Source of the DNA: Bacteroidales bacterium
Lineage (GTDB): Bacteria > Bacteroidota > Bacteroidia > Bacteroidales > 4484-276
DNA length: 47,690 nucleotides
Reading direction: 5' to 3'
Assembly: GCA_012523265.1 (NCBI GenBank)
Contig: JAAYIU010000437.1
Location: 1 to 47,690, forward strand
This document shows, one piece after another, positions 363-36,906 of this stretch (position 1 is its first letter; every line of letters begins with the position of its first letter). A program made the translations under genes and the position numbers. The notes below the pieces were generated by a model that saw only the letters and a program-made list of their open reading frames with translations, made no database searches and was not told where the DNA came from.

Positions 363-404
363 TTCTCACCTCTCACTTCTCACCTCTCACTTCTCACCTC
401 TCAC
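363..404. repeat. perfect 14-nt tandem repeat ttctcacctctcac x3
   Basis: The copies lie at 363-376, 377-390 and 391-404. The third copy contains the cyclase stop codon (394-396) and its last 3 codons. Confidence 0.95.
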
Positions 405-2376
405 TTTCAACCTCTTCCTCCACAAAATACATCTCAAAGGAAAGTCCGTTTTTTACTTCCACCTGTCCGCGGGGCGTACATTGGAAATGATCCTTCACCA
501 GGAGCCAGGTGGCGCGCGAAATATTTATCTTGCCTACTTCGCCGCCCGATTCCATGCGTGAGGCAATGTTGACGGTGTCGCCCCAGATGTCGTAGGCGAA
601 TTTACGGTTGCCCACGATACCGGCTACTACCGGGCCGGTGTGCAGGCCAATTCGCGCTTCAAACCACTGCATTCCGGCTGCCTGCCGTTGTTGTTTATAT
701 TCCTCCATAAACCGACGGATGGCGCAGGCGGCGCGCACGGCATCCACAGGATTGGTAGTATTGGCCAGAGGTAGCCCGGCAGCACACATGTATGAGTCGC
801 CGATGGTCTTGATTTTTTCGACGTGGTGCTGCGTGATGATGTCGTCGAAATGTTTGTAGCAATAGTCGATTTCGGCTACCAGCGCTTCGGGTTCCATTTC
901 TCCGGCCATTTGCACAAATCCTTTGAAGTCGGTGAAAAGAACTGTCACCTGATCGTATTTGCGAGCTTTGGATGTGCCGCTGTTTTTGAGTTCTTCGGCA
1001 GTTTCGGAAGGCAGGATATTTAGCAGCAGGTCGTCGGAGCGTTGGCGTTCGTGGGTGATCACCCGGTTTTTGTCCTCCAGCTCGCGACGGGTGCGCTGCA
1101 CGTAGCGGTAGCGGTGCAGCAGCAGCAGGGCGACAGCCAAAAATAATGCTCCGATAACGATGATTAGGTTGCGCAACTGCTTTTGGCGTTGGAGCTGGAG
1201 CTTTTGTATTTCGATATTTTTGGCAAACAGCTCTATTTCTTTATCAGATTTCTCTTTTACATAAGCATTCACGCTCATCTGCGACTTGCTTTTTTCGATG
1301 TTTTGCAGCGAGTCGCGCAGAGAGATGTATTTTTCGTTGTATTCAAAAGCGTGTTTATAATCATCGATACCCTGATAGGCTTTGCTCAGCTCCTTATAAA
1401 CATCTACCAGGATGCTGCGATAGTTCATTTCAAGCGCAAGCTGTTGTGTTTCGTTAAGCACCTGAAGCGCCGCGGTATGTTTCTTCTTTCGGTTCAAAAG
1501 ATCGCCTTGTGCAACCATTAAATTTAAAATCCCATATTGATCGTTTACCTGGTGCGCCAGGTCAAGCGCTGTATCCAGGTTAGCGGCGGCAAGTCCGATT
1601 TCATTTTTGTCGAGATAGAGATACACGAGCGCCTGATAAGCATATTCGAGCTTGTACAAGTCGTGGCTTTGTCGGTGCAGGCTAATGGCTTTTTGATGAT
1701 AATAAAAGGCCGAATCATATTGTTCGAGCGCCTGAAATGCAACGCCGATATTCGAGAGGTTGGTAGCGTATTTGGCGGTGTCGTGGCTTTTCAAATTGTA
1801 GCGCATCGCATTGCGAAAGTAATCGAGCGCAATGCCGGGGCTTTTCATCTCGTGGTAGCGCAGCCCAATGTTGTTGAGTGCCACGGCCATGCGCATGGTG
1901 TCGTGTTGGCTTTCGGCCAGCGAGAGCAACTCCAGCAGATAGTCGATCGAGGTAGAATATTCGCCCATGAGCGAATAAACGATGCTCAGGTTGTTGTAAA
2001 CCGAAGCGGCAAGATTCCAAAGATTATTTTCTTTCGCAATTTCCAGACATTGCTCGTATTTTGCTATCGCAGCCGGATAGTTACTTTGCTCGAGCATCAT
2101 GCCCTGAAGGTTGAGTGCGGTGGCAATTCCGGGATAAAAACCTTCGCGCTTCGACAAGTTATAGAGCTGTTCGGCATAATAGGAAACCGTGTCAGGATGG
2201 CTACTGCTCAGGTCGTACATTGCTGCAGTCAGATCCATGAGCAGCAGGCTGTCGGCGGGTTGCTTCAATATTTCTAAAAACAAGCTGTCGCATAATGCAA
2301 TTTTCTTTTCGGCCTGTGAATATGAGAACAGAGCTATCAAAAGCAAAAGCAACAGAAGCAGTTTTTTAGCGTGCAT
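394..2376 (-). CDS. membrane-anchored TPR-repeat class III adenylate cyclase
   Basis: 660-aa ORF. It has an N-terminal signal/anchor (KKLLLLLLLLIALFSYSQA), about 330 aa of TPR-like repeats, a coiled coil and a TM helix (LIIVIGALFLAVALLLL). The C-terminal cyclase core has FTDFKGF (metal Asp), KTIGDSYM and AYDIWGDTVNIASRME (the Lys/Asp adenine-specifying pair). Its start overlaps the cheB stop by 11 nt. Confidence 0.9.
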   Translation of the reverse strand: MHAKKLLLLLLLLIALFSYSQAEKKIALCDSLFLEILKQPADSLLLMDLTAAMYDLSSSHPDTVSYYAEQLYNLSKREGFYPGIATALNLQGMMLEQSNYPAAIAKYEQCLEIAKENNLWNLAASVYNNLSIVYSLMGEYSTSIDYLLELLSLAESQHDTMRMAVALNNIGLRYHEMKSPGIALDYFRNAMRYNLKSHDTAKYATNLSNIGVAFQALEQYDSAFYYHQKAISLHRQSHDLYKLEYAYQALVYLYLDKNEIGLAAANLDTALDLAHQVNDQYGILNLMVAQGDLLNRKKKHTAALQVLNETQQLALEMNYRSILVDVYKELSKAYQGIDDYKHAFEYNEKYISLRDSLQNIEKSKSQMSVNAYVKEKSDKEIELFAKNIEIQKLQLQRQKQLRNLIIVIGALFLAVALLLLHRYRYVQRTRRELEDKNRVITHERQRSDDLLLNILPSETAEELKNSGTSKARKYDQVTVLFTDFKGFVQMAGEMEPEALVAEIDYCYKHFDDIITQHHVEKIKTIGDSYMCAAGLPLANTTNPVDAVRAACAIRRFMEEYKQQRQAAGMQWFEARIGLHTGPVVAGIVGNRKFAYDIWGDTVNIASRMESGGEVGKINISRATWLLVKDHFQCTPRGQVEVKNGLSFEMYFVEEEVESER

Positions 2377-3421
2377 TTTTCACTTTATTAATTACAAATT
2401 CAGCGATATGGTTTATGGGCAGCACGTATTGCGCAGCGCCAATTTTTTCGGCTTCTTTGGGCATTCCGTATACTACGCTTGTGGCTTGATCTTGAGCGAT
2501 AGTCAGTGCTCCCGCCTGTTTCATTAAGAGCATGCCGGCGGCACCGTCAGCGCCCATTCCTGTAAGTAGAATGCCTGAAGCGTTGCTTCCGGCCACACGC
2601 GCTGCCGAATTAAAAAGTACATCCACGGCAGGGCGGTGCCGGTTGACCAGCGCGCCGCTATAAACGTCAGCGCAAAAGCCGTCAGCGCAGCGTTTGATAG
2701 CCGTATGAAAACCACCGGGCGCTATCAGCACTTTGCCGGCGGTGAGTTTTTCTCCATTTTCAGCTTCCTTCACCCGAAATGGAAATAAGCTGTTGAGCCT
2801 TTCGGCAAATGTTCGTGTAAAGCCCGCCGGCATATGCTGCACAACGATTACCGGCGGCGTGTTGGCAGGAAGCCCGGCCAGGAGTGTCTGGATGGCTTCC
2901 GTGCCACCGGTGGAGGCGCCAATAGCAATGATTGTTTTGTTATTAAAACCAAAAGCCGACACTGCATTAGCGGATTGCGCGGAGGCTTTCGGCAGTCGGG
3001 TCATATTGCGGCGAAGTGGCCGCGACATGCTGGCGGCTATCACGGCATCGACAATCTGAATACAGCTTTCGCTGATGTTTTCCTGATTGATAAGATTGGG
3101 TTTATGGATGACCTCCACAGCGCCATATTCCAATGCCCTGATCACTTCGGGGGAGCCTTTGCGCGTAAGGCTCGAAATCACCACTACCGGCACAGGGTGC
3201 TGTGTCATAATGCGATGAAGAAACGTAAGCCCGTCCATGCGAGGCATGTCCAGGTCGAGGGTGATCACGTCAGGAATTTCTTTTTTCATACAGGCTGCCG
3301 CCACATAAGGGTTGGGGGCTGTGGCAATAATTTCGATCAGCCCCGAGCGCTCAAGTATCCCGGTCAGCGAATGTCGGATTACAGCGGAATCATCGACAAT
3401 TAATACACGAATTTTTTTCAT
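2366..3421 (-). CDS. cheB: chemotaxis response regulator protein-glutamate methylesterase CheB
   Basis: REC domain (MKKIRVLIVDDS, LDLDMPRMDG) plus a methylesterase domain with GASTGG (Ser), VVQHMP (His) and GMGADG (Asp). The ORF extends to 3448, but the ATG at 3421 gives the canonical REC N-terminus. Confidence 0.93.
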   Translation of the reverse strand: MKKIRVLIVDDSAVIRHSLTGILERSGLIEIIATAPNPYVAAACMKKEIPDVITLDLDMPRMDGLTFLHRIMTQHPVPVVVISSLTRKGSPEVIRALEYGAVEVIHKPNLINQENISESCIQIVDAVIAASMSRPLRRNMTRLPKASAQSANAVSAFGFNNKTIIAIGASTGGTEAIQTLLAGLPANTPPVIVVQHMPAGFTRTFAERLNSLFPFRVKEAENGEKLTAGKVLIAPGGFHTAIKRCADGFCADVYSGALVNRHRPAVDVLFNSAARVAGSNASGILLTGMGADGAAGMLLMKQAGALTIAQDQATSVVYGMPKEAEKIGAAQYVLPINHIAEFVINKVKNAR

Positions 3422-3464
3422 AATAAAACTGGCTGTTGACGCATTCATCTCTTTTGTCCACCAT

Positions 3465-3926
3465 TCAAAGATATTTCTGCATCACCTCGCCGGTTTGTGT
3501 GTTAAAGAATATTTTACGTCCGCGGGTGCCGCCGGTGCTGCCTTTGGCTATTTGGATGCCATAGTCTGCATAAATATCAAAAGCCAACTCAACATTGTGC
3601 TGACCAATATCAAAAACCCTTGCGGTATCGTCGAGTATTCTGGCGCCGCCAAAAAATTTGGCAATAAGGTTTTCTGTTTTGCTGCCGTTGTTTAGCATTT
3701 TCTTTACCAGCAGATCGTTGGCAATATTTCCATATTTTGGTGAAGCCAATCCTACACCATTCCACAGCGGCAGCATGTAATGGTTCATCCCGCCGGTGTT
3801 TTTCGCTCTGTCCCACAGGCACACAGCCACACACGATCCCAAAATAGTATTGAGGATGATGGGCTGCTGTGCCACAAAAAGGGCTGATGAGTAAATGTAT
3901 TTCGCCTGCAGGTTGTTCATTATCAC
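3465..3926 (-). CDS. cheD: chemoreceptor glutamine deamidase CheD
   Basis: 153 aa with the CheD signature ILGSCVAVCLWD and NHYMLP. It starts 2 nt after the stop of the upstream kinase-like gene. Confidence 0.9.
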   Translation of the reverse strand: MIMNNLQAKYIYSSALFVAQQPIILNTILGSCVAVCLWDRAKNTGGMNHYMLPLWNGVGLASPKYGNIANDLLVKKMLNNGSKTENLIAKFFGGARILDDTARVFDIGQHNVELAFDIYADYGIQIAKGSTGGTRGRKIFFNTQTGEVMQKYL

Positions 3927-3928
3927 AC

Positions 3929-4819
3929 CTAAAACAATTCACTTTGGTCGAAGAGAAAATCCTCTCCATGGGTGGCTGAGCCGCTGCTGTCGGTGGTATG
4001 TGTACGATCCGGAATTCGGATGATAAAGGTGCTGCCATGATCGCGCTGGCTATGCAATTTTATTTCGCCGCCAAGAAGCTCAAGGTAATATTTTGTCAGT
4101 GGAAGCCCCAGGCCATGTCCTTGGCCGGGTGTAGCCACGGCAGGGTTTATTCTGCTGAACCGGTCGAAGATGCGCTCATGGTCAGCACTGTCGATACCGG
4201 AGCCATGGTCGGTTACGGCAATGGACACCATTTCTTCTTTGTGCGTTAGCGCAATATTCACCTCGGTACCGTGATAGGTGTATTGCACAGCATTCATAAT
4301 CAGATTTTCGAGGATGAGTTGCAGCTTTTGCGGATCGCTGCGAATAATGAGTTTGTCAGGCGAAAACCCGTCATAAACAAAGCGTACATTTCTGTCGGCA
4401 GCAATTTTTTTAAACTTTGCAGTAATGTCTTTGACCGCCTGCATAATGTCAAAATCATAAAATTCTATCGCCACATCACCGGCTTCTATCTCGGCAGAGG
4501 CAAAGATGTTGTGCCATTGGAAATCGAGATGTACCGCTTCCTGATAGATCAGTGCTGCCCGGCGACGAATCTCTTCTGCTGGCAGGTTTTCATTCGCGCT
4601 AAGCGATTCCGATAAACTGAGTATCGCCGTGAGCGGGTTGATGATCTCGTTGCGTGCATTCGACAGAAAGTTCGTTTTCAGCCGCTCTGCCTCAATGAGT
4701 TTGCGATTCACCTGCCGGAGCGTACGGTTGAGCTGTTCCAGTTCTTCGTAAGCCTGGCTGCGCTGGTCGATGCGCCGCTGCAGTTCGTCGATAAGTTGCC
4801 GGTCGGTAAGTGATGTCAT
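3929..4819 (-). CDS. HisKA/HATPase_c histidine-kinase-like protein lacking the phospho-acceptor His
   Basis: 296 aa with an N-terminal coiled coil. The H-box reads FLSNARNEIINPL where FLxNxSHExRxPL is expected, so His is replaced by Asn while ExxN is kept. The N box (LENLIMNAVQYT), G1 (DHGSGID), F (IFDRFSR) and G2 (GHGLGL) are intact. There is no sensor, TM or REC domain. Confidence 0.85.
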   Translation of the reverse strand: MTSLTDRQLIDELQRRIDQRSQAYEELEQLNRTLRQVNRKLIEAERLKTNFLSNARNEIINPLTAILSLSESLSANENLPAEEIRRRAALIYQEAVHLDFQWHNIFASAEIEAGDVAIEFYDFDIMQAVKDITAKFKKIAADRNVRFVYDGFSPDKLIIRSDPQKLQLILENLIMNAVQYTYHGTEVNIALTHKEEMVSIAVTDHGSGIDSADHERIFDRFSRINPAVATPGQGHGLGLPLTKYYLELLGGEIKLHSQRDHGSTFIIRIPDRTHTTDSSGSATHGEDFLFDQSELF

Positions 4820-4859
4820 AGTTTATGGTGTAATGTCAGTTCTGGTAATGATGGTAAAA

Positions 4860-4906
4860 ATTCCAAATTCCAAATCTCAAATAAATTCCAAAAAGCAAAT
4901 TCCAAA
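4860..4906. repeat. ATTCCAAA (sense strand TTTGGAAT) iterated 4 times plus one degenerate copy
   Basis: Perfect copies lie at 4860, 4867, 4885 and 4899, and a degenerate copy atctcaaa at 4874. They sit in the 177-bp spacer between cheR and the kinase-like gene. Confidence 0.9.
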
Positions 4907-4996
4907 AACAAATATTGGTGGCATGCAGCAGTTTGGATTTTTGATTGTTTACACCAACTACTGGTGGTTGCCTTGTTGTGATTTGTTTTTTACAGC

Positions 4997-5854
4997 TTAA
5001 ATCTTTTGATACACAGCGGGTGCTACCCTTTTCAGTGGGCGCCACAAGTCGTTTGATAAGGATTCGGAGTGACCAATAAAAAAATACCCGCCCGGACGCA
5101 GTTTTTTAAGCAGCGCCCGCACTACGCGCAACTGCACCGCACGATCGAAATAAATCAACGTGTTGCGGCAAAAGATGGCATCAAAGTCTTTCTGCTGAAA
5201 GCGCTCTGTTTGCATTAGATTTTGCCTTTCAAACTGCACCTTCTGTCGCAGTGCCGAAACGATACGCACCCTCTTGGCTGTCCGGTCGCGGCTGCGCAAG
5301 AGGTAGTTCTGGCGCAGACTCAGCGGTATCACCTGGGTTTTGCTTTCGGGATAGATGGCCAGGGTAGCTTGTCGCAATGCTGTTGCCGAGATGTCGGTAG
5401 CCACAATTTTAAAATTGAAACGAGGATGCAATGATTTGAACTCACTCATGATAATGGCCATCGTGTAAGCCTCTTCGCCTGTGGAGCATCCGGCACTCCA
5501 TATTTTAAAGGATGGATCTTCGGAATGCTGGTAATGATCGATAAAGACATTTTTGTATAAAAAATCAAAATGATCGGGTTCGCGGAAGAAATCGGTTTTG
5601 TTGGTAGTCACCGCGTCGATCATGTGGACAAGCTCAATCTGCCGGCCACGGCTGCTGAACAAAAAAGTGATATAGGTGGCGAAGTCGCTGCACGCGTTTA
5701 TCTTCAGGCGCGAGCGCAGGCTGCTTTGGAGCATCAGCTTCTTATGCGGCGGCAGGTGGATGCCGTACTCGCGGAAGATAAATTCGCTGAGCCGCCCAAA
5801 GTCGGCCTGGCTCATCTCTGTCTTATAAAGCCTATGTAGTTCGTTGGTCTGCAC
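4997..5854 (-). CDS. cheR: chemotaxis protein methyltransferase CheR
   Basis: 285 aa with the CheR N-terminal helical domain and a SAM-binding fold (IWSAGCSTGEEAYTMA, IFCRNTLIYF). Confidence 0.93.
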   Translation of the reverse strand: MQTNELHRLYKTEMSQADFGRLSEFIFREYGIHLPPHKKLMLQSSLRSRLKINACSDFATYITFLFSSRGRQIELVHMIDAVTTNKTDFFREPDHFDFLYKNVFIDHYQHSEDPSFKIWSAGCSTGEEAYTMAIIMSEFKSLHPRFNFKIVATDISATALRQATLAIYPESKTQVIPLSLRQNYLLRSRDRTAKRVRIVSALRQKVQFERQNLMQTERFQQKDFDAIFCRNTLIYFDRAVQLRVVRALLKKLRPGGYFFIGHSESLSNDLWRPLKRVAPAVYQKI

Positions 5855-5902: not shown

Positions 5903-7909
<2,007 letters not shown>

Positions 7910-7947: not shown

Positions 7948-7955
7948 CAAAAGTA
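7948..7955 (-). promoter_or_regulatory. Bacteroidota -7 promoter box (TActTTTG) for hutU
   Basis: The plus strand reads caaaagta, which is TACTTTTG on the minus strand and matches TAnnTTTG. It lies 39 nt upstream of the hutU ATG. Confidence 0.45.
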
Positions 7956-23708: not shown

Positions 23709-24029
23709 ATGACTGATACAAAACAAGTCCACGTCCGGATAGAAAGAGAGAGAGATCAGCAGCAGTATCTTTCGGTCGCGCTCAGCGGCGCTCTTACCAT
23801 CGATCACGTAGCTGATGTGCAGCAGCAGTTGTTGCAACATCTCGATGCCGTTCAGGGGGTTCGGTTGTCGATAGATGAAGCCGACGAGATGGATCTGCCA
23901 TTTTATCAATTGTTGATTTCTTTGCAACAGACATTGATAAAGCAAAACAAAGAATTTAGTGCGACGATATTGTTGGATGAAGAAAAGGAAGAGCTTTTCA
24001 GGAGGGCTGGTTTTGAATTTAATTTTTAA
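23709..24029 (+). CDS. STAS domain protein
   Basis: 106 aa with STAS-like alternation (LSVALSGALTIDHVADVQQQLLQHL...RLSIDEADEMDLPFYQLLISL). There is no phosphorylatable Ser at the SpoIIAA-equivalent position (DLPF instead of DSSG). It lies 11 nt upstream of cheY. Confidence 0.65.
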   Translation: MTDTKQVHVRIERERDQQQYLSVALSGALTIDHVADVQQQLLQHLDAVQGVRLSIDEADEMDLPFYQLLISLQQTLIKQNKEFSATILLDEEKEELFRRAGFEFNF

Positions 24030-24040
24030 ATAAAAAAAAC

Positions 24041-24415
24041 ATGAACCAGGAAAAACGGACGGTAGTTTTTGTTGACGATTCGGCGAGCATGCGCGAAGCC
24101 GTGGGATGCATCCTGCAGCAAAACGGATATACTGTGCTCAAAGCCGGCGACGGGCAGGATTCATTGAAATATTTTGAAGGCACCCCCGTGGATTTGCTTA
24201 TCACCGATCTGCACATGCCGCGCATGAATGGTATCGAATTGATACAAACCCTGCGCAATAGTTCCCGCTACAGGTATTTGCCTATTTTGGTGCTAACCAC
24301 CGAAGCGCAGGTTGCCCAAAAAATGGAAGCCAAACGCGCCGGAGCTACCGGCTGGCAGGTGAAACCTTTTACACCCGAAAACCTCATGGCCGTTATCCGC
24401 CGCGTTATTCATTAA
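24041..24415 (+). CDS. cheY: chemotaxis response regulator CheY
   Basis: 124 aa single REC domain (VFVDDS, LLITDLHMPRMNG, VLTT, VKPF). Confidence 0.92.
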   Translation: MNQEKRTVVFVDDSASMREAVGCILQQNGYTVLKAGDGQDSLKYFEGTPVDLLITDLHMPRMNGIELIQTLRNSSRYRYLPILVLTTEAQVAQKMEAKRAGATGWQVKPFTPENLMAVIRRVIH

Positions 24416-24434
24416 TAAATTTCTTCAAGATTGT

Positions 24435-26573
24435 ATGAACCAGGCTGTAGAATCACCGAACGACCAATTTGCCATCGACATGGTGATGTTGAAGCAAAAA
24501 TTTACCGAGGAAGCGCATGAGCTGATCAATGACCTGGAAAATGCCATTTTGCTTCTCGAAAAAAATGCCGGCGACACACAGCAGATTGAAGCGGTGTTCA
24601 GAGCTATGCACACCCTCAAAGGCAGTGGCGGCATGTTTGGTTACCACAAGATCAGCGAGTTTACGCACGACCTGGAAACCATCTACGATTTTGTTCGCAA
24701 TGGCGATATCACCGTTACCAAGCCATTGCTCGACATCACCCTGCAGGCTGTCGATCATCTTAAAATATTGATAAAATATGGCGATGATATCGACGAACAA
24801 AACACCAAAAATCATCACCAGTTTACCGAAAGCATCCGGGTTTTTGTGCAGAAACAATTAGCGCCTTTCGATTCGCAGAGTGACGCCGGGACAGACAGAG
24901 CAGCGCTAAATGACTCTAATCCCATCATCACCTGGCGCATTCTTTTCAAGCCGCAGATAGATTTGTTTCGTAATGGCAGCAACCCGCTCTATCTCATCGA
25001 CGAGCTGCATACCTATGGCAACGCCGTATCCATTCCTCACACAAGGGCGGTGCCTGACTTGTCAGAAATCGACACCGAAAAATGCTACCTCTGGTGGGAA
25101 ATATTTATTGCCACCCGGCAATCCAAAGAAGCGCTGAATGACGTTTTTATTTTTGTTGAAGATGATTCGTACATCGAAGTGACCAAGATCGGCGATGGTG
25201 ATCTTTTTGATGAGAGCCGCTTTCGCGAATATCTCGATAAACTCTGGAATGAACAGTTGCAGGTTGATATTAACGAGCTGGAAAAAATTGTGCAAAGCCG
25301 CAATGCTTTGCATCAGCCGGCGCCGGCGGTAAGCCATTCAGTAGCAGAAGGGGATGAGGAAACCAAACCGTCGGCCGACAACAATTCTGCTGTCACCACC
25401 GATGAAAAGCTTTCGAGTATTCGTGTTGCCACGCCAAAGATCGACTCGCTGATGAATTTGGTGAGCGAGCTGGTAACGTTGCAGGCGCGGCTGAGTGGCT
25501 ACGCCGGGCAACACGACGACGACGGTTTGACAGCGCTAACCGAAAATCTTTCTACACTATCCAAACAGCTTCGCGAGGCTGCCTTTAGCATCTCATTGGT
25601 TCCTTTTGGCAGCATTACTACCCGTTTTCAGCGGCTTGTGCGCGACCTTTCCGACAATCTTAATAAAAAAACAAACCTGGTGGTGGAAGGGCAAAATACC
25701 GAACTTGACAAAACGATAGTGGAGCGCATCGCCGATCCGTTGATGCACATCATCCGCAACTGTATCGACCATGGCATCGAAAGCCCGGAAGAGCGTGTGC
25801 GCAATGGGAAATCCGAAACCGGCACTATTCATCTGCGGGCACTTCATGTGGGCAACACCATTCATATCGAAGTAAACGACGATGGCGCCGGCATAGATGC
25901 GGATGCGTTGATGCGCAAAGCCATCGAGCGAAAAGTGATCCTGGCCAATGTTGCCTTGACACACGAGCAGAAAATTCAGCTCATCTTTTCTCCGGGTCTT
26001 ACCACAGCCCGCTCTGTGACTGATGTATCTGGCCGTGGAGTGGGCATGGACGTGGTGCAACAACGCGTTGCAGGGCTGCGCGGCGAAATTCGGATAAAAT
26101 CACAACCTGGCGCCGGAACCCGCATCACGCTGGTGGTGCCGCTTACTCTAAGCATCATCGACGGGATGCACGTGCGAATAGGCGAGGTGAGTTACATTAT
26201 TCCTATCAATGCTGTGCAACAGATACATTCGGTGCAAATGCAAAACCTGCGCAATGCTTTCGACAACGTGTTGGCGATTGAGGGCGAGCAAGTGCCTTTT
26301 TTCTGGCTACGCAAACATTTCGGCCTGGATTCGACAACTCCCGAGCGTTGTGAAATGGTAACCGTTCGTTATGGCCGGCAGCAGGCCGGGTTGGTTGTTG
26401 ATAAGGTGATGGGAGAGGTGCAAGTCGTTCTGAAACCGCTGGGGCGCGCTTACCGGCAGCAGAAGTTTATATCGGGAGCTACTGTGATGGGCGACGGGAC
26501 AGTAGCGCTGGTGTTGGATACAAATGAAATAATTTCGCGATTTTTGCCCCAAAAATTAGCAACTGATAAATGA
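24435..26573 (+). CDS. cheA: chemotaxis histidine kinase CheA
   Basis: 712 aa with Hpt (FRAMHTLKGSGGMFG), a dimerisation domain, HATPase (IRNCIDHGIE, DDGAGID, GRGVGMD) and a C-terminal CheW-like domain. Confidence 0.95.
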   Translation: MNQAVESPNDQFAIDMVMLKQKFTEEAHELINDLENAILLLEKNAGDTQQIEAVFRAMHTLKGSGGMFGYHKISEFTHDLETIYDFVRNGDITVTKPLLDITLQAVDHLKILIKYGDDIDEQNTKNHHQFTESIRVFVQKQLAPFDSQSDAGTDRAALNDSNPIITWRILFKPQIDLFRNGSNPLYLIDELHTYGNAVSIPHTRAVPDLSEIDTEKCYLWWEIFIATRQSKEALNDVFIFVEDDSYIEVTKIGDGDLFDESRFREYLDKLWNEQLQVDINELEKIVQSRNALHQPAPAVSHSVAEGDEETKPSADNNSAVTTDEKLSSIRVATPKIDSLMNLVSELVTLQARLSGYAGQHDDDGLTALTENLSTLSKQLREAAFSISLVPFGSITTRFQRLVRDLSDNLNKKTNLVVEGQNTELDKTIVERIADPLMHIIRNCIDHGIESPEERVRNGKSETGTIHLRALHVGNTIHIEVNDDGAGIDADALMRKAIERKVILANVALTHEQKIQLIFSPGLTTARSVTDVSGRGVGMDVVQQRVAGLRGEIRIKSQPGAGTRITLVVPLTLSIIDGMHVRIGEVSYIIPINAVQQIHSVQMQNLRNAFDNVLAIEGEQVPFFWLRKHFGLDSTTPERCEMVTVRYGRQQAGLVVDKVMGEVQVVLKPLGRAYRQQKFISGATVMGDGTVALVLDTNEIISRFLPQKLATDK

Positions 26574-27103
26574 ACATGAATTACAACAGCAGCAATCAAT
26601 CTTATTTAACCTTTCAGTTGGCAAACGAAATCTTTGCTATCCACGCAGGTCGTGTCATCAAAATACTGGAGATGCAAAAAATTACGGAAGTCCCACGGGC
26701 ACCTTCTTTTATGAAGGGTGTAATTAATCTGCGTGGCGATGTGTTGCCGGTAATCGATGCGCGCGAGAAGTTTGGGATGATGGCCACTGCTTATGGGCAG
26801 CGTACCTGCATACTCGTGCTCACGGTTACTTCCGAAAATGAAACACTGCAGGTTGGCGCCATTGTAGATGCCGTACTGGATGTGGTAAAATATCCTGATG
26901 ATCAGATCAAAAAAGCTCCCGCACTCGGCAGCCGCTATTCTTCGGAGGTGGTGGCCGGAGTGATGAAGACAGAAGACGATTTCATTATAATATTAAATGT
27001 CGACCATGTTTTTTCGACTGACGAAATTATCAGCCTGAACGAAAACATGCAGTCACAAACCGAAAATTTATCCGCATCAAGTCAAACAAAATCAAAACAA
27101 TAA
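26570..27103 (+). CDS. cheW: chemotaxis coupling protein CheW
   Basis: 177 aa CheW fold (YLTFQLANEIFAI..., INLRGDVLPVID). Its start overlaps the cheA stop (ATGA). Confidence 0.92.
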   Translation: MNMNYNSSNQSYLTFQLANEIFAIHAGRVIKILEMQKITEVPRAPSFMKGVINLRGDVLPVIDAREKFGMMATAYGQRTCILVLTVTSENETLQVGAIVDAVLDVVKYPDDQIKKAPALGSRYSSEVVAGVMKTEDDFIIILNVDHVFSTDEIISLNENMQSQTENLSASSQTKSKQ

Positions 27104-27115
27104 CAGGAGGCAACT

Positions 27116-29143
27116 ATGGCATGGAAAGATCTTAAACTGGCTGCAAAACTGGGCGTAGGCTTTGGCATCATCATCCTGATATTAATAACAGTAGGAACCA
27201 TTTCGCTGCTCGAATTTCGTAAGATAGAAAAAGATTCGGCGCGTATTGCCGAGTGCAGCCTTCCGCAGGTAATCATCGCCAACAGCCTGGAGCGGCAGGC
27301 TATGAAGATCACCAAAAACCTCAACACCTTTGCCCTGACCAACGAGCCGCAACTGCTCGAAAAAACGGCTGCCATCATCAGGCAGGTGGAAGATGTGGTT
27401 CACAATGCCGACAGGCAATACAGCGGGTTGGGCTTGTCGTCGCGGTTTGTTGAGCAACTTAATAACGTAAGAAATTCTTTACCCGAATTTGAGGTGCTGA
27501 TGCAGAATATGAAGCTGCAAAGCGAAAAGCTGCTCGTCGACCGGAGTCTGATGGATGAGGCATCAGCCATTTTTCTCGACAACTGTTACAGCTATGCCGG
27601 AAATCAACAGGCAATTATGGCCCGACAAATCGACAATCGCAATGCACAGCAACGCCAGCTCGACAACATTGTCCTTATCAACAACCTGATCGACCGCGGC
27701 AACCAGATGCGCATCGAAAACTTTAAAGCACAGGCAAAGCTTACGCTTTCGCAGATGTCAGGTTTCAACACGTATTTCGATGAAATCGACCACTTGATCA
27801 CCAGCCTCGAATCACGCACCACCGATAACCAAAGTGTGCTGCTGCTCGGAAATATCCGCAACTCGGCACAAAGCTACCACGATGTTACCAACGATTTTGT
27901 TAACACCTACAACCTGCTGCAGCAGTACAATGAGCAGGTAACAACTATGGGCACCGGATTGGAAACAGTTTTTAGCGATCTGGCCGCAGGCAGCCTCCGC
28001 GAGTCGCTCGACTTTACCAGCAGCACCACCGTCAAATCGCAGTCGTCGCTGCGCATACTTTTTATCGGACTACTCATCGCCATAATTATCAGCATATTGC
28101 TTGGATGGCAGATTTCGCGCAGCATCACCCGCTCGCTAAAAAAAGGTGTAGCCTTTGCCCGCGAAATAGCTGACGGAAATCTACAGGCCAACATCGACAT
28201 CGACCAGAAAGATGAGTTTGGCGAGCTGGCCGAAACCCTGCGGCAGATGAAAGATAAACTCAGCGAGGTGATCGTCTCGGTGCAGGCTGCCGCCGGATAT
28301 ATTGCCGAAGCCAGCAACCAGATGAGCCTCACTTCGCAGGATGTATCGCACGGCAGCACACGCCAGGCTTCGTCGGCAGAAGAGATTTCGGCATCGATGC
28401 AACAGATGTCGGCCAGCATCTCCCACAACACCTCCAATGCCCAGCGTACCGAGCAAATTGCTGATGTGGCGACCGGAAAAATGAAACAAGGCTCGGAGAC
28501 CGTGCAGCAATTGGCCCAGGCGATTCGCGAAATTGCCGAACGCATCACCATCATTGGCGATATTGCTTATCAAACCAACATCCTCTCGCTCAACGCAGCT
28601 GTAGAAGCGGCCCGTGCCGGAGAGCAGGGACGTGGCTTTGCAGTGGTGGCCGATGAGGTGAAAAAACTTGCCGAGCGCAGTCAAAAAGCAGCTACGGAGA
28701 TCAACCGTGTGTCGGGAGCCGGCGTAAAACTTGCCGAACATTCGCAGCAGCTCTTTGGCGAGATTATGCCCAAGATCGACGAAACCCTGCGCCTGGTGCA
28801 GCAGATCACCGCCCAGAGCCTGGAACAGGATTCGGGGGCCTCATTGGTGAATGATTCTATTCAGCAGCTCAATCAGGTGATACAGCAAAATGCCGCCGCC
28901 GCCGAAGAGATGGCCACCAACAGCGAAGAACTCGCCAGCCAGGCACAGCAGATGAAAGACATCATGAGCTTTTTCAAAACCGGAAAAGAATACCGCCAAC
29001 AATTGCACAACCAGCATTATCAGCGATACAACAGCCATTATCCACAGCAAAACCACCCGCTCACCATCGAGAGTAGCCAAAAAAAGGGCGTCAACCTTCG
29101 CCTGGATGATGACGATATTGATAAGGATTTCGAACGCTATTAG
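27116..29143 (+). CDS. methyl-accepting chemotaxis protein
   Basis: 675 aa with TM1, a roughly 280-aa helical periplasmic domain, TM2, HAMP and the MCP signalling domain ([40 protein letters not shown]). It has an acidic/aromatic tail ...[12 protein letters not shown]. Confidence 0.95.
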
Positions 29144-34510: not shown

Positions 34511-34552
34511 GTAGCCCAGCCATTCATGGTTCGGTAGCCCAGCCATTCATGG
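34511..34552. repeat. 19-nt perfect tandem direct repeat gtagcccagccattcatgg x2
   Basis: The copies lie at 34511-34529 and 34534-34552, a period of 23. The second copy is part of the palindrome ccagccat-tc-atggctgg and contains the hypD stop codon. Confidence 0.9.
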
Positions 34553-35626
34553 CTGGCAATAGCGATAATGCGCATGGCAGGCGCCTTCGCTCGAAACCAT
34601 GCAGGCGCCCACAGGGTCTTGTGGCGTACACACGGTGCCAAAGAGTTTGCAATCAGCGGGTGATTTTACACCTTTTAAAATCTGCCCACAAATACATCCT
34701 TTGGGCTCGCGCGTGGGTTCTATCGTCACCGGAATATTTTCGGCGTCCAAATGATTGTATTTTTCCTTTAGCATTAATCCGCTGTGGTGAAGCATTCCCA
34801 GCCCGCGCCACCAGTCGTTGCGCGGTTCAAAAACTTCGGCCACAAGCTGCTGTGCCTTTTGGTTGCCTTGGGGAGGTACAGCACGCCGGTATTGAATTTC
34901 CACTTTGGGAGCTTTGTCTTCGATTTGCTGCACCAGCATATAAATGGCTTGCAGCAGGTCAAGCGGCTCGAAGCCGGAAATTACCACGCCCACTTTATAG
35001 TTTTCGGCCAGCCCGCTGTACATGCCGCTGCCGGTGATGGCGCTCACGTGTCCCGGCCCGATGTAACCGTGGATGTTAACACCTTCGTCGATGAGTGCTG
35101 CCATGGCGGGTGGCATCACCTTGTGAGAACTGAGGAAAAAGAAATTTCTGAACTGCTGCTGGTGCGCTATTTTAATGCCTGCGGCGCTTCCCGGAGTGGT
35201 GGTTTCAAAACCTATTCCCGGGAAGAGGATGCGTTTATCCGGATTTTTTTTTGCCAGCGCAATGGCGTCGAGGATGCTGTAAACAATGCGGACATCAGCG
35301 CCACGGGCTTTCTCGTTGTCGAGCGATGAGGACGATCCCGGCACACGGATCAGGTCGCCAAAAGTGGCTACGATTACATTGGGAAGCCTTGCCAGCGCTA
35401 TGGTGTGATCGATAAAGCGGCGGCTGGTGACGCACACCGGACAGCCCGGACCCGAAAGCAGCCGGATGGTTGGCGGAAGCAAAGCAGGAATACCATATTT
35501 GCGGATAGCCATGGTGTGGCCACCGCAAACTTCCATCAGGTTGACGGAGCGTGTAGAGATGGCTTTGATTTTATCAGCAAGTGCCAGCACCAGCTTCTTG
35601 TCTCTGTATTCGTCGATGTATTTCAC
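34547..35626 (-). CDS. hypD: [NiFe]-hydrogenase maturation protein HypD
   Basis: 359 aa, collinear with E. coli HypD. It has MEVCGGHT, GPGCPVCV, GFETT, PGHVS and the C-terminal Cys cluster (CICGQILKG...CKLFGTVCTP...GACMVSSEGAC). It uses a GTG start. Confidence 0.93.
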   Translation of the reverse strand: MKYIDEYRDKKLVLALADKIKAISTRSVNLMEVCGGHTMAIRKYGIPALLPPTIRLLSGPGCPVCVTSRRFIDHTIALARLPNVIVATFGDLIRVPGSSSSLDNEKARGADVRIVYSILDAIALAKKNPDKRILFPGIGFETTTPGSAAGIKIAHQQQFRNFFFLSSHKVMPPAMAALIDEGVNIHGYIGPGHVSAITGSGMYSGLAENYKVGVVISGFEPLDLLQAIYMLVQQIEDKAPKVEIQYRRAVPPQGNQKAQQLVAEVFEPRNDWWRGLGMLHHSGLMLKEKYNHLDAENIPVTIEPTREPKGCICGQILKGVKSPADCKLFGTVCTPQDPVGACMVSSEGACHAHYRYCQP

Positions 35627-35784
35627 AAGGTCATAATTTTTACAACAGTATCATTCCACGAACTATTCATAACATTTTATTTATTTTGGGCTAAAGCCCA
35701 CTATAATTTTTCTTTAGCTTTTATCCCCGGTCTAAAGGGCAGGGTTAGTGATCAGTCGCCTACAAAAAACATCTATTTTAAAAC

Positions 35785-36861
35785 TTACTCCTTCTTAATA
35801 TTCTGTTGCCGGTTAAAATAATGCAGCGGGTCGCCCCATTCACCTATCGCTACCTTACAGCCGGCGCTTTCGATGGAAACTTTAAGATTGGCCAGATGAC
35901 TTTCGGTCTCTTCGTGCAGGTTGGGTTTGTTAGCGTAAAGCTGATATCCTTCGCGGTATTTGAGTGGCGTAAGGTTGGGCATGATTACATTGGCGCCTAC
36001 AGTGAGTGCTTTTTCCCGTCCCTTTGGATGCAGCGTTTGCATGGCGGTGGTGGCGGCAATGTTGATGTCGGGCATTATGATGCGCAGCAGTGCCACCATC
36101 TTCATCGACAGCTCAAAGCGTTCGTCGGCGGGCAGCAGCAGATGGCGATATTTATACAAATGAGTTTCCTCGTGTTCGATGTAGGGTCCCATGCCTACCA
36201 TGTCGATGTTGTGGTTCCGGATGAAAAGCAGGTCGTCGGCAAGATGGCTGATGGTTTGAAAAGGCAGCCCAATCATCACGCCAGTACCGGTTTGATAATC
36301 GCAATACTGCAAAAGCTTCAGGGCGTCGAGACGTTTGTCGAAGCTGTGCAACGAATCGTTGGGATGCATTTTTTGGTACAGCTCGCGGTTGGATGTTTCG
36401 ATGCGCAGCAAATAACGATGTGCTCCGTTGCGGCGCCAGAGTTTTAAAGTTTCTGCAGTTTGCTCGCCCAGCGACAGCGTTACGTGGAGTTCGCCATGCG
36501 TCGCGTTGCGTATCTGCGAAAGCAAAAAGGCAATTTTTTCTACAAATATTTTATCGTTACGCTCGCCCGACTGAAGCACCAATGAGCCAAAGTTGTTGCG
36601 ATGTGCCAGTAAAGCAGCTTCCAGCACTTCATCATCGGTGAGGGTGTAGCGTTTTACGTTTTTATTGCCGCGCCGCACGCCACAGTAAAAGCAGTTTTTC
36701 GTGCAGCGATTCGAATATTCGATCAGCCCGCGGTAATACACGTTGTTGCCCACCACTTGCTCTTTTGTCTGCTTTGCCTGCCGGTACAACTCTTCCAGTT
36801 CGGTACCCTGGCTCATCAAGAGCCGGGAAAGATTATCGTTATTAAAATTATCTAATGTCAT
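35785..36861 (-). CDS. hydE: [FeFe]-hydrogenase H-cluster radical SAM maturase HydE
   Basis: 358 aa, collinear with Thermotoga HydE. It has IEYSNRCTKNCFYCGVRRGNKNVKRY (CX3CX2C), HRYLLRIETSN, GVMIGLPFQT and GANVIMPNLTP. Confidence 0.9.
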   Translation of the reverse strand: MTLDNFNNDNLSRLLMSQGTELEELYRQAKQTKEQVVGNNVYYRGLIEYSNRCTKNCFYCGVRRGNKNVKRYTLTDDEVLEAALLAHRNNFGSLVLQSGERNDKIFVEKIAFLLSQIRNATHGELHVTLSLGEQTAETLKLWRRNGAHRYLLRIETSNRELYQKMHPNDSLHSFDKRLDALKLLQYCDYQTGTGVMIGLPFQTISHLADDLLFIRNHNIDMVGMGPYIEHEETHLYKYRHLLLPADERFELSMKMVALLRIIMPDINIAATTAMQTLHPKGREKALTVGANVIMPNLTPLKYREGYQLYANKPNLHEETESHLANLKVSIESAGCKVAIGEWGDPLHYFNRQQNIKKE

Positions 36862-36906
36862 GGGTTTTTTAATAAAATCCTTTCTGCTGGTGGTCTGCAG
36901 AGACGA

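What the first reader, a model, noticed from the sequence alone, without database searches (positions are those of the whole stretch)
394..5854. Adaptation half of a Che pathway is translationally coupled to a TPR adenylate cyclase
Five co-directional genes read cheR, His-less HisKA/HATPase protein, cheD, cheB, then a TPR class III adenylate cyclase.
- The kinase-like gene and cheD are 2 nt apart.
- cheD and cheB are 16-43 nt apart, depending on the cheB start chosen.
- cheB and the cyclase overlap by 11 nt.

The cyclase keeps both metal-binding Asp residues and the Lys/Asp adenine-specifying pair, so it should make cAMP. No flagellar, pilus or gliding-motor gene lies next to either che operon, and the surrounding context is Bacteroidota, a phylum that is usually non-flagellated. 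This suggests a chemosensory pathway whose output or feedback is second-messenger synthesis rather than motor switching. To my knowledge that wiring has not been characterised in this phylum. No TAnnTTTG box precedes cheR, so the unit may be read through from hutU or may use another sigma factor.
Basis: partly seen in the sequence, partly recalled or inferred. Interest (0 to 1): 0.7.

Follow-up and report, generated by a model that had tools for sequence, protein, structure and literature searches.

The report
Che operon ending in adenylate cyclase
In an uncultured Bacteroidales bacterium, the adaptation genes of a chemotaxis-like sensory system are followed by, and overlap, a gene for a membrane enzyme that makes cAMP; this linkage is inherited across one clade, but nothing in the sequence shows the sensory pathway controlling the enzyme.

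Summary
**Observation: confirmed.** Five co-directional minus-strand genes read cheR, His-less HisKA/HATPase protein (HKL), cheD, cheB and TPR class III adenylate cyclase (AC). The spacings are as reported: 2, 16/43 and -11 nt. The AC keeps all six catalytic residues.

**Interpretation: partly supported.**
- The genes are the 3' half of a split operon. Relatives carry it intact: STAS-cheY-cheA-cheW-MCP-cheR-(REC-HK-REC)-HKL-cheD-cheB-AC.
- The other half lies at 23.7-29.1 kb in the window.
- Che-linked ACs form one clade, down to about 50% identity.
- In this clade, every member whose upstream DNA could be read follows cheB, despite differing flanks.
- Five close paralogs outside the clade, and 80 of 80 generic TPR-AC loci, have no che neighbour.

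**Limits on the claim.**
- The AC has no receiver domain.
- Its sensor domain is inferred to be periplasmic, from two hydrophobic segments.
- Its clade-specific residues sit in that TPR part.
- The overlap exists only in the closest relatives.
- The AC was lost at least twice.
- About 33 related operons carry other genes after cheB.

**Best reading:** a co-transcribed, self-sensing cAMP branch, not a demonstrated Che output.

**Side finding:** HKL has Asn for His in 79 of 79 readable loci. cheD follows it in all 79 loci that extend past it, across several phyla. It is probably a kinase-dead partner of CheD.

The parts
5903..7909 (-). hutU (urocanase). It is the upstream neighbour and a possible read-through source. 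It carries the only TAnnTTTG box (7955..7948) upstream of the unit.
   Evidence: Pfam Urocanase N/central/C domains. The box is listed. The same hutU-cheR junction occurs in L002 and L167/168.
4997..5854 (-). cheR, the MCP methyltransferase. The ORF starts at the GTG at 5854; an ATG at 5815 is equally plausible.
   Evidence: CheR_N + CheR, E 5.9e-56. Sequence read.
4820..4996 (-). A 177-nt non-coding gap between cheR and HKL. It holds four TTGGAATTT direct repeats (4858-4905). In relatives, a REC-HisKA-HATPase-REC gene sits in this position.
   Evidence: The hybrid kinase is seen in L004, L007, L162 and L169.
3929..4819 (-). HKL, a 296-aa soluble coiled-coil + DHp-like + HATPase protein. Asn57 replaces the phospho-acceptor His. 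E58, N61 and P62 and the N, G1 and G2 ATP-binding boxes are conserved.
   Evidence: cheD follows it in all 79 loci that extend past it, and Asn is present in all 79 loci where the motif could be read.
3465..3926 (-). cheD, the receptor deamidase. Its GSC (Cys32) and HxMLP (His49) motifs align with T. maritima CheD.
   Evidence: Pfam CheD 1.8e-22. Alignment to 2F9Z chain C.
2366..3448 (-). cheB, a REC + methylesterase protein. The GASTGG, VQHMP and GMGADG motifs are visible in the translation.
   Evidence: Response_reg 6e-22 and CheB_methylest 4.8e-64. Translation.
2366..2376 (-). The 11-nt overlap ATGCACGCTAA between the cheB stop codon and the cyclase start codon.
   Evidence: The same -11 overlap occurs in L001, L002 and L167/168.
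394..2376 (-). TPR receptor-type class III adenylate cyclase, 660 aa. Layout: signal/anchor (aa 1-22), TPR + coiled coil (about aa 26-400), TM helix (about aa 401-425), cyclase domain (aa 471-653). Catalytic residues are D483, D527, K523, D596, N603 and R607.
   Evidence: Clade analysis.
23709..24029 (+). STAS-domain protein, the first gene of the other half of the system.
   Evidence: STAS_2 5.2e-8, 33.4 bits, above the 29.2 cut-off. Homologous position in L004 and L007.
24041..24415 (+). cheY, a single-domain response regulator.
   Evidence: Response_reg 1.4e-25.
24435..26573 (+). cheA, with Hpt, H-kinase_dim, HATPase_c and CheW domains.
26570..27103 (+). cheW.
   Evidence: CheW 1.8e-32.
27116..29143 (+). 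MCP with 4HB_MCP, HAMP and MCPsignal domains. Its C-terminus ...DKDFERY resembles a CheR/CheB-tethering pentapeptide.

Best explanation
**What the unit is.**
- The five genes are the 3' half of a chemosensory operon of the STAS-cheY-cheA-cheW-MCP-cheR-(kinase)-cheD-cheB type.
- That order matches the non-motility 'stage 1/2 F7' clusters, plus an extra kinase-like gene.
- I infer a non-flagellar role from the phylum, not from a whole-genome check.
- In this lineage the operon was split. STAS-cheY-cheA-cheW-MCP now lies at 23.7-29.1 kb on the plus strand.
- cheR-HKL-cheD-cheB was placed behind hutU, and the REC-HisKA-HATPase-REC gene was lost.

**How the cyclase joined it.**
- At the base of a clade related to Lentimicrobiaceae, one member of the very large Bacteroidota family of TPR receptor-cyclases was recruited as the last gene of the operon.
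- It has mostly been kept there since.
- In the window's subclade its start codon came to overlap the cheB stop by 11 nt.

**How it most likely works (inferred).**
- The cyclase is made from the same transcript as CheR, CheD and CheB. The cheB-cyclase spacers of six relatives hold no Bacteroidota -7 box.
- It sits in the inner membrane as a homodimer with two complete active sites and makes cAMP.
- It is regulated by its own TPR domain, inferred to be periplasmic, not by phosphotransfer from CheA.
- The operon therefore encodes two co-expressed sensory branches:
  - a Che branch with methylation and deamidation adaptation;
  - a cAMP branch that probably serves the same behaviour or lifestyle decision.

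**HKL.** It is most likely a kinase-dead HisKA protein that works with CheD. My preferred guess is a CheY~P or CheB~P phosphatase, or a binder of the phosphorylated regulator, analogous to CheC in the CheC-CheD pair.

**Shown:** gene content, spacing, catalytic residues, conservation and monophyly of the linkage, and the HKL-CheD pairing.

**Inferred:** co-transcription, membrane topology, independence of the cyclase from CheA/CheY, and the HKL function.
For: **Anatomy.**

**Ancestral intact operon, with the cyclase last.** Seen in L004, L007, L162 and L169.

**Monophyly of the linkage.**
- Che-linked cyclases form one neighbour-joining (NJ) clade of 26 terminals. None of the three paralogs then known to be unlinked falls inside it.
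- Two clade members tested afterwards (P0137, P0132) proved linked.
- Two paralogs outside the clade tested afterwards (P0145, P0148) proved unlinked, as had P0146, P0147 and P0155.
- Of 80 generic TPR-cyclase loci, 0 have any che gene.

**Different flanks.** The gene downstream of the cyclase is an S49 peptidase in L004, a T9SS protein in L007 and a LytTR regulator in L161. The upstream arrangement is split in the window group and intact elsewhere.

**No separate promoter signal.** No TAnnTTTG box occurs in the six cheB-cyclase spacers examined. No terminator-like site lies inside the window unit.

**Active cyclase.** All six catalytic residues are present.

**No Che-docking domain.** The cyclase has no REC domain. 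Of 35 clade-specific conserved residues, 28 lie in the periplasmic TPR part: 7.5 per 100 residues, against 2.2-2.7 in the linker and cyclase.

**HKL.**
- Asn replaces His.
- E58, N61 and P62 and the ATP-binding boxes are invariant or nearly so.
- cheD follows HKL in all 79 loci that extend past it, including stand-alone pairs between dnaN and gyrB.
Against: - No transcript data exist, so co-transcription is inferred only from spacing and the lack of promoter motifs.
- The overlap is confined to close relatives. Spacers of 68-357 nt elsewhere could hold non-canonical promoters.
- The cyclase is missing from L022/L046 and L006, which nest among cyclase-bearing operons in the CheB tree. The Che system therefore works without it.
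- About 33 other Bacteroidota operons of this type, with at least 2 kb readable past cheB, have DUF4407, GAF-PAS, CheY or other genes after cheB.
- A conserved terminal position could also reflect direct regulation that domain searches cannot see. P. aeruginosa CyaB is controlled by Pil-Chp without a receiver domain.
- The NJ trees are unbootstrapped.
- The HKL phosphatase idea is pure inference. The His itself contributes to phosphatase chemistry in HK853 and EnvZ (PMC7005713).
Confidence: 0.5

Rival explanations
1. **Direct output.** The Che array controls the cyclase, so cAMP is the adapted output of the pathway. Control could be through CheY~P, CheB~P or STAS binding to the cytoplasmic cyclase dimer. 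It could also be through contact between the periplasmic TPR domain and the MCP 4HB domain. This would resemble Pil-Chp controlling CyaB in P. aeruginosa.
For: - The cheB-cyclase linkage is strict and monophyletic, and has survived rearrangements.
- No other output gene is evident in the window unit.
- No motility genes lie nearby.
- There is precedent for a chemosensory system regulating a membrane class III cyclase that has no receiver domain.
- Clade-specific residues in the periplasmic TPR part would fit a periplasmic partner such as the MCP sensor domain.
Against: - The cyclase has no REC, CheW-like or other docking domain.
- Its cytoplasmic parts are no more clade-specific than in unlinked paralogs.
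- The cyclase was lost in nested lineages, and most operons of the type lack it.
- Relatives carry a REC-HisKA-HATPase-REC protein and a STAS protein, which are more conventional outputs.
- No interaction test was possible.
Confidence: 0.2
2. **Neutral hitch-hiking.** One of many TPR-cyclase paralogs landed behind cheB once. It persists by vertical descent and operon inertia, with no functional relation to chemosensing.
For: - The family is very large. More than 1155 hits were found among only 8000 scored candidates, and tandem arrays are common. Chance insertions next to any operon are therefore likely.
- There was a single origin.
- There were losses in L022/L046 and L006.
- The slot after cheB is evolutionarily fluid.
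Against: - Linkage is kept while the cyclase diverged to about 50% and HKL to about 45% identity. It survived an operon split, loss of a neighbouring gene and changes of downstream neighbours.
- No canonical -7 box of its own was found in the six spacers examined.
- The junction was tightened to an 11-nt overlap in one subclade.
- The TPR domain carries many clade-specific conserved residues, which indicates a specialised, selected function.
Confidence: 0.2
3. **cAMP as input or feedback.** cAMP made by the cyclase acts back on the Che system, for example on adaptation enzymes or on transcription of the two half-operons through a CRP-type regulator.
For: - The cyclase is co-encoded specifically with the adaptation genes rather than with cheA and cheY in the window.
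- cNMP-binding and Crp genes lie near unlinked paralogs in L165 and L171, so the phylum uses cAMP receptors.
Against: - No cNMP-binding domain occurs in any Che protein, or in any gene of the window or the linked loci examined.
- In relatives the cyclase simply ends the whole operon, so its pairing with the 'adaptation half' is an artefact of the split.
Confidence: 0.07

Closest known systems
Pseudomonas aeruginosa Pil-Chp chemosensory system controlling the class III adenylate cyclase CyaB
   Same: A Che-like pathway with CheR/CheB-type adaptation is tied to cAMP synthesis by a membrane class III cyclase that lacks a receiver domain (papers listed; Fulcher 2010, cited).
   Different: - CyaB is not encoded in the chp cluster, and its control was shown experimentally. 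Here only gene linkage is shown.
- The organism is a Bacteroidales bacterium, not a proteobacterium.
- The cyclase has a TPR sensor inferred to be periplasmic.
- No pilus genes are nearby.
Stage 1/2 F7 (and related F8) chemosensory clusters: V. cholerae cluster III, P. aeruginosa Che2, S. oneidensis Che1
   Same: The gene order is the same: anti-sigma antagonist (STAS), cheY, cheA, cheW, MCP, cheR, cheD, cheB (Ortega 2020). A gene-order legend using the letters S, Y, A, W, M, R, K, D and B, where K is 'a gene encoding histidine kinase', exists for Campylobacterota F classes (PMC9239204).
   Different: - An HK-like gene, and in relatives also a REC-HK-REC gene, lies between cheR and cheD.
- The MCP is a transmembrane 4HB-HAMP receptor, not an Aer2-type receptor.
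- A cyclase is appended.
- The operon is split in the window.
- Class assignment with MiST HMMs could not be run.
Wsp system (WspR diguanylate cyclase output)
   Same: A Che-like pathway is encoded together with a nucleotide second-messenger cyclase.
   Different: WspR is a REC-GGDEF response regulator that is phosphorylated by the CheA homologue. The cyclase here has no REC domain.
CheC-CheD pair of Bacillus subtilis and Thermotoga maritima
   Same: CheD is encoded next to a dedicated partner. The HKL-cheD adjacency holds in all 79 loci that extend past HKL, across several phyla. CheD keeps its Cys and His motifs.
   Different: The partner is a His-to-Asn HisKA/HATPase protein, not a CheC/CheX/FliY-family phosphatase. 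Any phosphatase or CheD-binding role for it is inferred only.
Pseudo-histidine kinases such as Caulobacter DivL (Tyr for His) and RetS
   Same: They have a DHp + CA fold without the phospho-acceptor His. DivL (4Q20) and RetS (6DK8) are among the PDB sequence matches.
   Different: - The substitution here is Asn, and it is invariant.
- The protein is small and soluble, with no sensor domain.
- It is always paired with cheD.
Class IIIa membrane adenylate cyclases (Mycobacterium Cya/Rv1625c; mammalian AC C1/C2 domains)
   Same: These are the best solved-structure matches: mammalian AC8, AC5 and AC9 at E 1e-54 to 1e-55, and the mycobacterial Cya entries 4P2M and 1YK9 at E 1e-36 to 1e-43. All six catalytic residues are present.
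   Different: The N-terminal module is a signal/anchor, TPR region and single TM helix, not a six-helix membrane domain.

Membership tests
Class III adenylate cyclase (active, adenine-specific homodimer) | Two metal-binding Asp residues | tested here: met
   D483 and D527 align with the Asp of the C1 motifs 'FADVKGF' and 'ILGDCYYC'. Both are invariant in A3.
Class III adenylate cyclase (active, adenine-specific homodimer) | Substrate-specifying Lys/Asp pair and transition-state Asn/Arg | tested here: met
   K523, D596, N603 and R607 align with the C2 motifs 'EKIKTIGS' and 'YDIWGxTVNxASRM'. All are invariant.
Class III adenylate cyclase (active, adenine-specific homodimer) | Measured cAMP synthesis | not testable with these tools
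   Needs an enzyme assay or complementation of an E. coli cya mutant.
Che adaptation module (CheR, CheB, CheD) | CheR SAM-binding and N-terminal domains; CheB REC + methylesterase; CheD fold with the catalytic Cys and His | tested here: met
   Pfam hits are far above their cut-offs. CheD's GSC and HxMLP motifs align with 2F9Z. CheB's GASTGG, VQHMP and GMGADG motifs are read.
Complete chemosensory pathway | CheA, CheW, an MCP and CheY present | tested here: met
   The 24041-29143 cluster encodes all four. In relatives they are contiguous with the adaptation genes.
F7/F8-type chemosensory class (Wuichet-Zhulin/MiST) | Gene order STAS-Y-A-W-M-R-D-B | tested here: met
   L004 and L007 show this order with extra kinase genes. 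L162 and L169 show it from cheA or the MCP onward, because their loci are cut upstream. The order is described.
F7/F8-type chemosensory class (Wuichet-Zhulin/MiST) | Class-specific CheA/CheB/CheR HMM assignment and MCP heptad class (36H or 34H) | not testable with these tools
   The MiST class HMMs are not available here. The Wuichet-Zhulin paper is not held. The heptad class was not determined.
HisKA-family histidine kinase | Phospho-acceptor His in the H-box | tested here: not met
   Asn57 aligns with HK853 His260. Asn is invariant in the family. HisKA scores 22.9 bits against a 26.9 cut-off.
HisKA-family histidine kinase | ATP-binding N, G1 and G2 boxes in the CA domain | tested here: met
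   N172/N176, D204/G206/G208 and G234/G236/G238 are invariant or at least 90% conserved. HATPase_c E 1.3e-25.
Che pathway with a second-messenger enzyme as phospho-regulated output (Wsp-like) | Output enzyme carries a receiver domain | tested here: not met
   The cyclase has only TPR and Guanylate_cyc domains.
Che pathway controlling a cyclase without a receiver domain (Pil-Chp/CyaB-like) | Cyclase activity depends on the Che proteins | not testable with these tools
   Needs genetics or biochemistry. Only conserved linkage is shown.
Operon / translational coupling | Overlapping stop and start codons, conserved among relatives | tested here: inconclusive
   The -11 overlap occurs in the window, L001, L002 and L167/168. 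The more distant linked operons L004, L007, L161, L162, L169 and L170 have 68-357 nt spacers without a TAnnTTTG box. No transcript data exist.

The most novel reading that the evidence does not exclude
In a clade of presumably non-flagellated Bacteroidales, the chemoreceptor array gates a TPR receptor-cyclase. This would give a methylation-adapted chemosensory pathway whose output is cAMP rather than a motor. The pathway would be serviced by a previously uncharacterised His-to-Asn pseudo-kinase that partners CheD in place of CheC.
Probability: 0.2. Interest if true: 0.75.

Novelty: new variant of a known kind. Interest (0 to 1): 0.5.

Why it matters
- Operons of this Che type turn up in many Bacteroidota lineages, a phylum generally regarded as non-flagellated, and my literature searches found no study of what they do there.
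- A clade in which the operon has kept a catalytically complete adenylate cyclase as its last gene gives a concrete, testable candidate for what these systems feed into or cooperate with.
- It would also extend the Pil-Chp/CyaB precedent beyond Proteobacteria.
- Separately, the invariant pairing of CheD with a kinase-dead HisKA protein across several phyla points to an unstudied accessory module of chemosensory adaptation.

Tried and rejected
- **Metagenome scan.** I used it as a background set instead (0 of 80 with che genes).
- **Class assignment.** This was not possible. The Wuichet-Zhulin paper is not held, no MiST HMMs are available, and the gene-order figure of PMC9239204 is not readable as text.
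- **Literature.** Searches on Lentimicrobium motility and on Bacteroidota chemosensing returned nothing relevant. The Geobacter che paper does not mention the kinase-CheD pair.
- **Promoter and terminator scans.** These were uninformative: 8 sigma-70-like sites against 9.5 expected, and 4 terminator-like sites against 10.5 expected.
- **Pentapeptide idea.** I considered that the HKL C-terminal tail (…FLFDQSELF) might be a CheR/CheB-tethering pentapeptide. I rejected this because position 2 of the last five residues is not aromatic. The MCP tail DFERY does fit the pattern.
- **STAS kinase idea.** I considered HKL as an RsbW-like kinase of the STAS protein. I rejected it as the main idea because HKL-cheD pairs occur alone, far from any STAS or che gene.
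- **Whole-genome motility search.** The search for fla, mot, pil and gld genes could not be done.

Full report
**1.

ORF listing and Pfam scans show five co-directional minus-strand genes:
- cheR, 5854..4997
- a 296-aa HisKA-like/HATPase protein, here called HKL, 4819..3929
- cheD, 3926..3465
- cheB, 3448..2366
- a 660-aa TPR + Guanylate_cyc protein, 2376..394

The stated spacings are correct.
- HKL to cheD is 2 nt with the GTG start, or 8 nt with the ATG that public gene calls use.
- cheD to cheB is 16 or 43 nt. Both cheB starts occur in public calls.
- cheB and the cyclase overlap by 11 nt, ATGCACGCTAA.

A 177-nt non-coding gap separates cheR from HKL. The cheR start could be the ATG at 5815.

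HKL really lacks the phospho-acceptor. HK853 His260 aligns with Asn57, and canonical kinases read SHELRTP where this family reads RNEIINP.

The cyclase has both metal-binding Asp residues (D483, D527), the adenine-specifying pair (K523, D596) and the transition-state pair (N603, R607). These are aligned to mammalian C1 and C2 domains and are invariant.

No TAnnTTTG box precedes cheR or lies in the 177-nt gap. One sits 39 nt upstream of the hutU ATG. The window holds no flagellar, pilus or gliding genes.

The context is Bacteroidales.
- The closest homologues are named Bacteroidales or Lentimicrobiaceae.
- A T9SS-sorted protease is present.
- The locus matches the end of a 148-kb MAG contig, at 97% cyclase identity and 100% HKL identity.

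**2. The 'two che operons' are two halves of one**

In relatives the genes are contiguous: STAS-cheY-cheA-cheW-MCP-cheR-(REC-HisKA-HATPase-REC)-HKL-cheD-cheB. This is seen in L004, L007, L162, L169 and many other Bacteroidota loci.

The window has STAS (23709-24029), cheY, cheA, cheW and an MCP at 24041-29143 on the plus strand. The split, with hutU now upstream of cheR, is shared with L002 and L167/168.

The order STAS-Y-A-W-M-R-D-B is that of the non-motility 'stage 1/2' F7 clusters. A figure legend for Campylobacterota F classes also lists a histidine-kinase gene 'K' among the cluster genes. I could not run the class HMMs.

The MCP ends in DFERY, a pentapeptide-like tether for CheR and CheB. 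This is consistent with the separated adaptation genes still serving this receptor.

**3. Is the cheB-cyclase link more than chance?**

Seen from the Che side, the link is uncommon. Of the genome loci with at least 2 kb readable past cheB, four (L001, L002, L004, L007) have the cyclase next and about 33 do not. The others carry DUF4407, GAF-PAS proteins, CheY, a second CheA, or genes with no known family.

Seen from the cyclase side, the link is strict within one clade.
- The TPR-cyclase family is very large: more than 1155 hits among only 8000 scored candidates.
- In a background sample of 80 metagenome loci at 30-40% identity, none has any che gene.
- In an NJ tree of 124 sequences, the che-linked cyclases form a single clade of 26 terminals, with identity to the window cyclase falling to about 49-52%.
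- Every clade member with readable upstream DNA follows cheB: the window, L001, L002, L004, L007, L161, L162, L167/168, L169 and L170.
- The nearest sequences outside the clade (P0145-P0148 at 48-51% identity, and P0155) are not linked.

The flanks differ among linked loci, so the link has been kept through rearrangement.

A CheB tree puts all cyclase-bearing operons in one clade. L022/L046 and L006, which lack the cyclase, nest inside it. This implies one gain and at least two losses (an unbootstrapped NJ tree).

**4. What the link can and cannot mean**

The overlap is confined to the window subclade (cyclase identity 79% or more). Elsewhere there are 68-357 nt spacers. None contains a TAnnTTTG box, which fits co-transcription but does not prove it.

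The cyclase has no receiver domain. Its TPR region lies between an N-terminal signal/anchor and a TM helix that is followed by a basic stretch, so the sensor is inferred to be periplasmic and the cyclase domain cytoplasmic.

Of 35 positions conserved in the linked clade but rare outside it, 28 lie in the periplasmic TPR part. What is special about this clade is therefore what it senses or touches outside the cytoplasm, not a cytoplasmic docking surface.

I conclude that the best-supported reading is a co-expressed, self-sensing cAMP branch attached to a Che operon (confidence 0.5). Direct control by the Che array, as with Pil-Chp and CyaB, remains possible (0.2). Neutral hitch-hiking is about as likely (0.2).

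**5. The kinase-like gene**

This gene is the more general result.
- A pattern-guided genome scan found 354 relatives. The best 80 are spread over Bacteroidota, Nitrospirota, Desulfuromonadales, Desulfobulbaceae and KSB1.
- cheD directly follows HKL in all 79 loci that extend far enough to show it.
- This includes stand-alone pairs, for example between dnaN and gyrB in Candidatus Magnetominusculus, and next to HDOD and REC-GGDEF genes in Trichlorobacter.
- Asn occupies the His position in all 79 loci where the motif could be read. One of the two scan patterns required RNEI, so this count is partly circular. However, the word-based protein search gives the same result, with an invariant Asn57 down to 33% identity.
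- E58, N61 and P62 and the ATP-binding boxes are conserved.

In HisKA kinases the Thr/Asn four residues after the His is required for phosphatase activity, not kinase activity (PMC3510030). I therefore suggest, as inference only, that HKL is a kinase-dead phosphatase or binder of a phosphorylated response regulator. It would work with CheD much as CheC does. The role of the His itself in phosphatase chemistry (PMC7005713) is a caveat.

**6. Novelty**

Second-messenger outputs of Che-like systems are known (Wsp; Pil-Chp/CyaB). What is new here is a clade-wide operonic link to a receptor-type adenylate cyclase in Bacteroidales, and the CheD-pseudokinase module. Neither turned up in my literature searches.

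I rate this a new variant of a known kind, with interest 0.5.

Noticed in passing
window 3465-4819; L001-L080: HKL (a His-to-Asn HisKA/HATPase protein) is followed directly by cheD in all 79 genome loci that extend past it, across several phyla. This includes stand-alone pairs between dnaN and gyrB (L015) and next to HDOD and REC-GGDEF genes (L023). It looks like a conserved two-gene module.
   Followed up: partly
window 3929-3960 (HKL C-terminus); all HKL loci: HKL ends in a conserved acidic and aromatic tail (…G-x-[DE]-F-L-F-[DE]-x3-5-E-[LIV]-F). Geobacter-type members end …FLFDQMDEK. This may be a docking peptide.
   Followed up: no
window 29126-29140: The MCP C-terminus DFERY, after a low-complexity linker, fits the x-aromatic-x-x-aromatic pentapeptide pattern that tethers CheR and CheB.
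   Followed up: no
window 4858-4905: Four TTGGAATTT direct repeats lie in the 177-nt cheR-HKL gap. These are the only four copies in the window, against 1.1 expected. They may be a regulator binding site, or a remnant of the lost REC-HK-REC gene region.
   Followed up: no
window 363-415: A 14-nt tandem repeat (TTCTCACCTCTCAC, 3.8 copies) spans the cyclase stop codon and its last codons. Further short repeats fill 1-360. The MAG contig ends about 1 kb beyond the cyclase.
   Followed up: no
L004 8438-9994; L007 8438-9994; L162 3880-5436; L169 1900-3465: Relatives carry a 518-521 aa REC-HisKA-HATPase-REC hybrid kinase between cheR and HKL. It is absent from the window lineage, where the 177-nt gap lies instead.
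   Followed up: partly
L030, L040, L063, L079; L042, L051, L070, L077; L031, L049, L055, L074: The slot after cheB in other Bacteroidota operons of this type holds recurrent but different genes. These are DUF4407 (about 430 aa), a GAF-PAS-PAS protein of about 760 aa with no recognised output domain, or a CheY.
   Followed up: partly
L007 12455-12811: The 357-nt cheB-cyclase spacer contains long, near-perfect inverted repeats (fold energy -114 kcal/mol). It looks like an inserted repeat element.
   Followed up: no
L089, L103, L105, L111, L112, L119, L120, L123, L125, L134, L146, L147: Generic TPR-cyclase genes often occur in tandem arrays of two or three paralogs.
   Followed up: no
L161 5800-6606; L164 2181-2927: A LytTR-type response regulator lies convergent and immediately downstream of the che-linked cyclase in two relatives. 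A LytTR protein also follows an unlinked paralog (L166).
   Followed up: no
window 34547-38121: A hydrogenase maturation cluster (HypD, a radical-SAM protein and HydF) is present, consistent with an anaerobic lifestyle.
   Followed up: no
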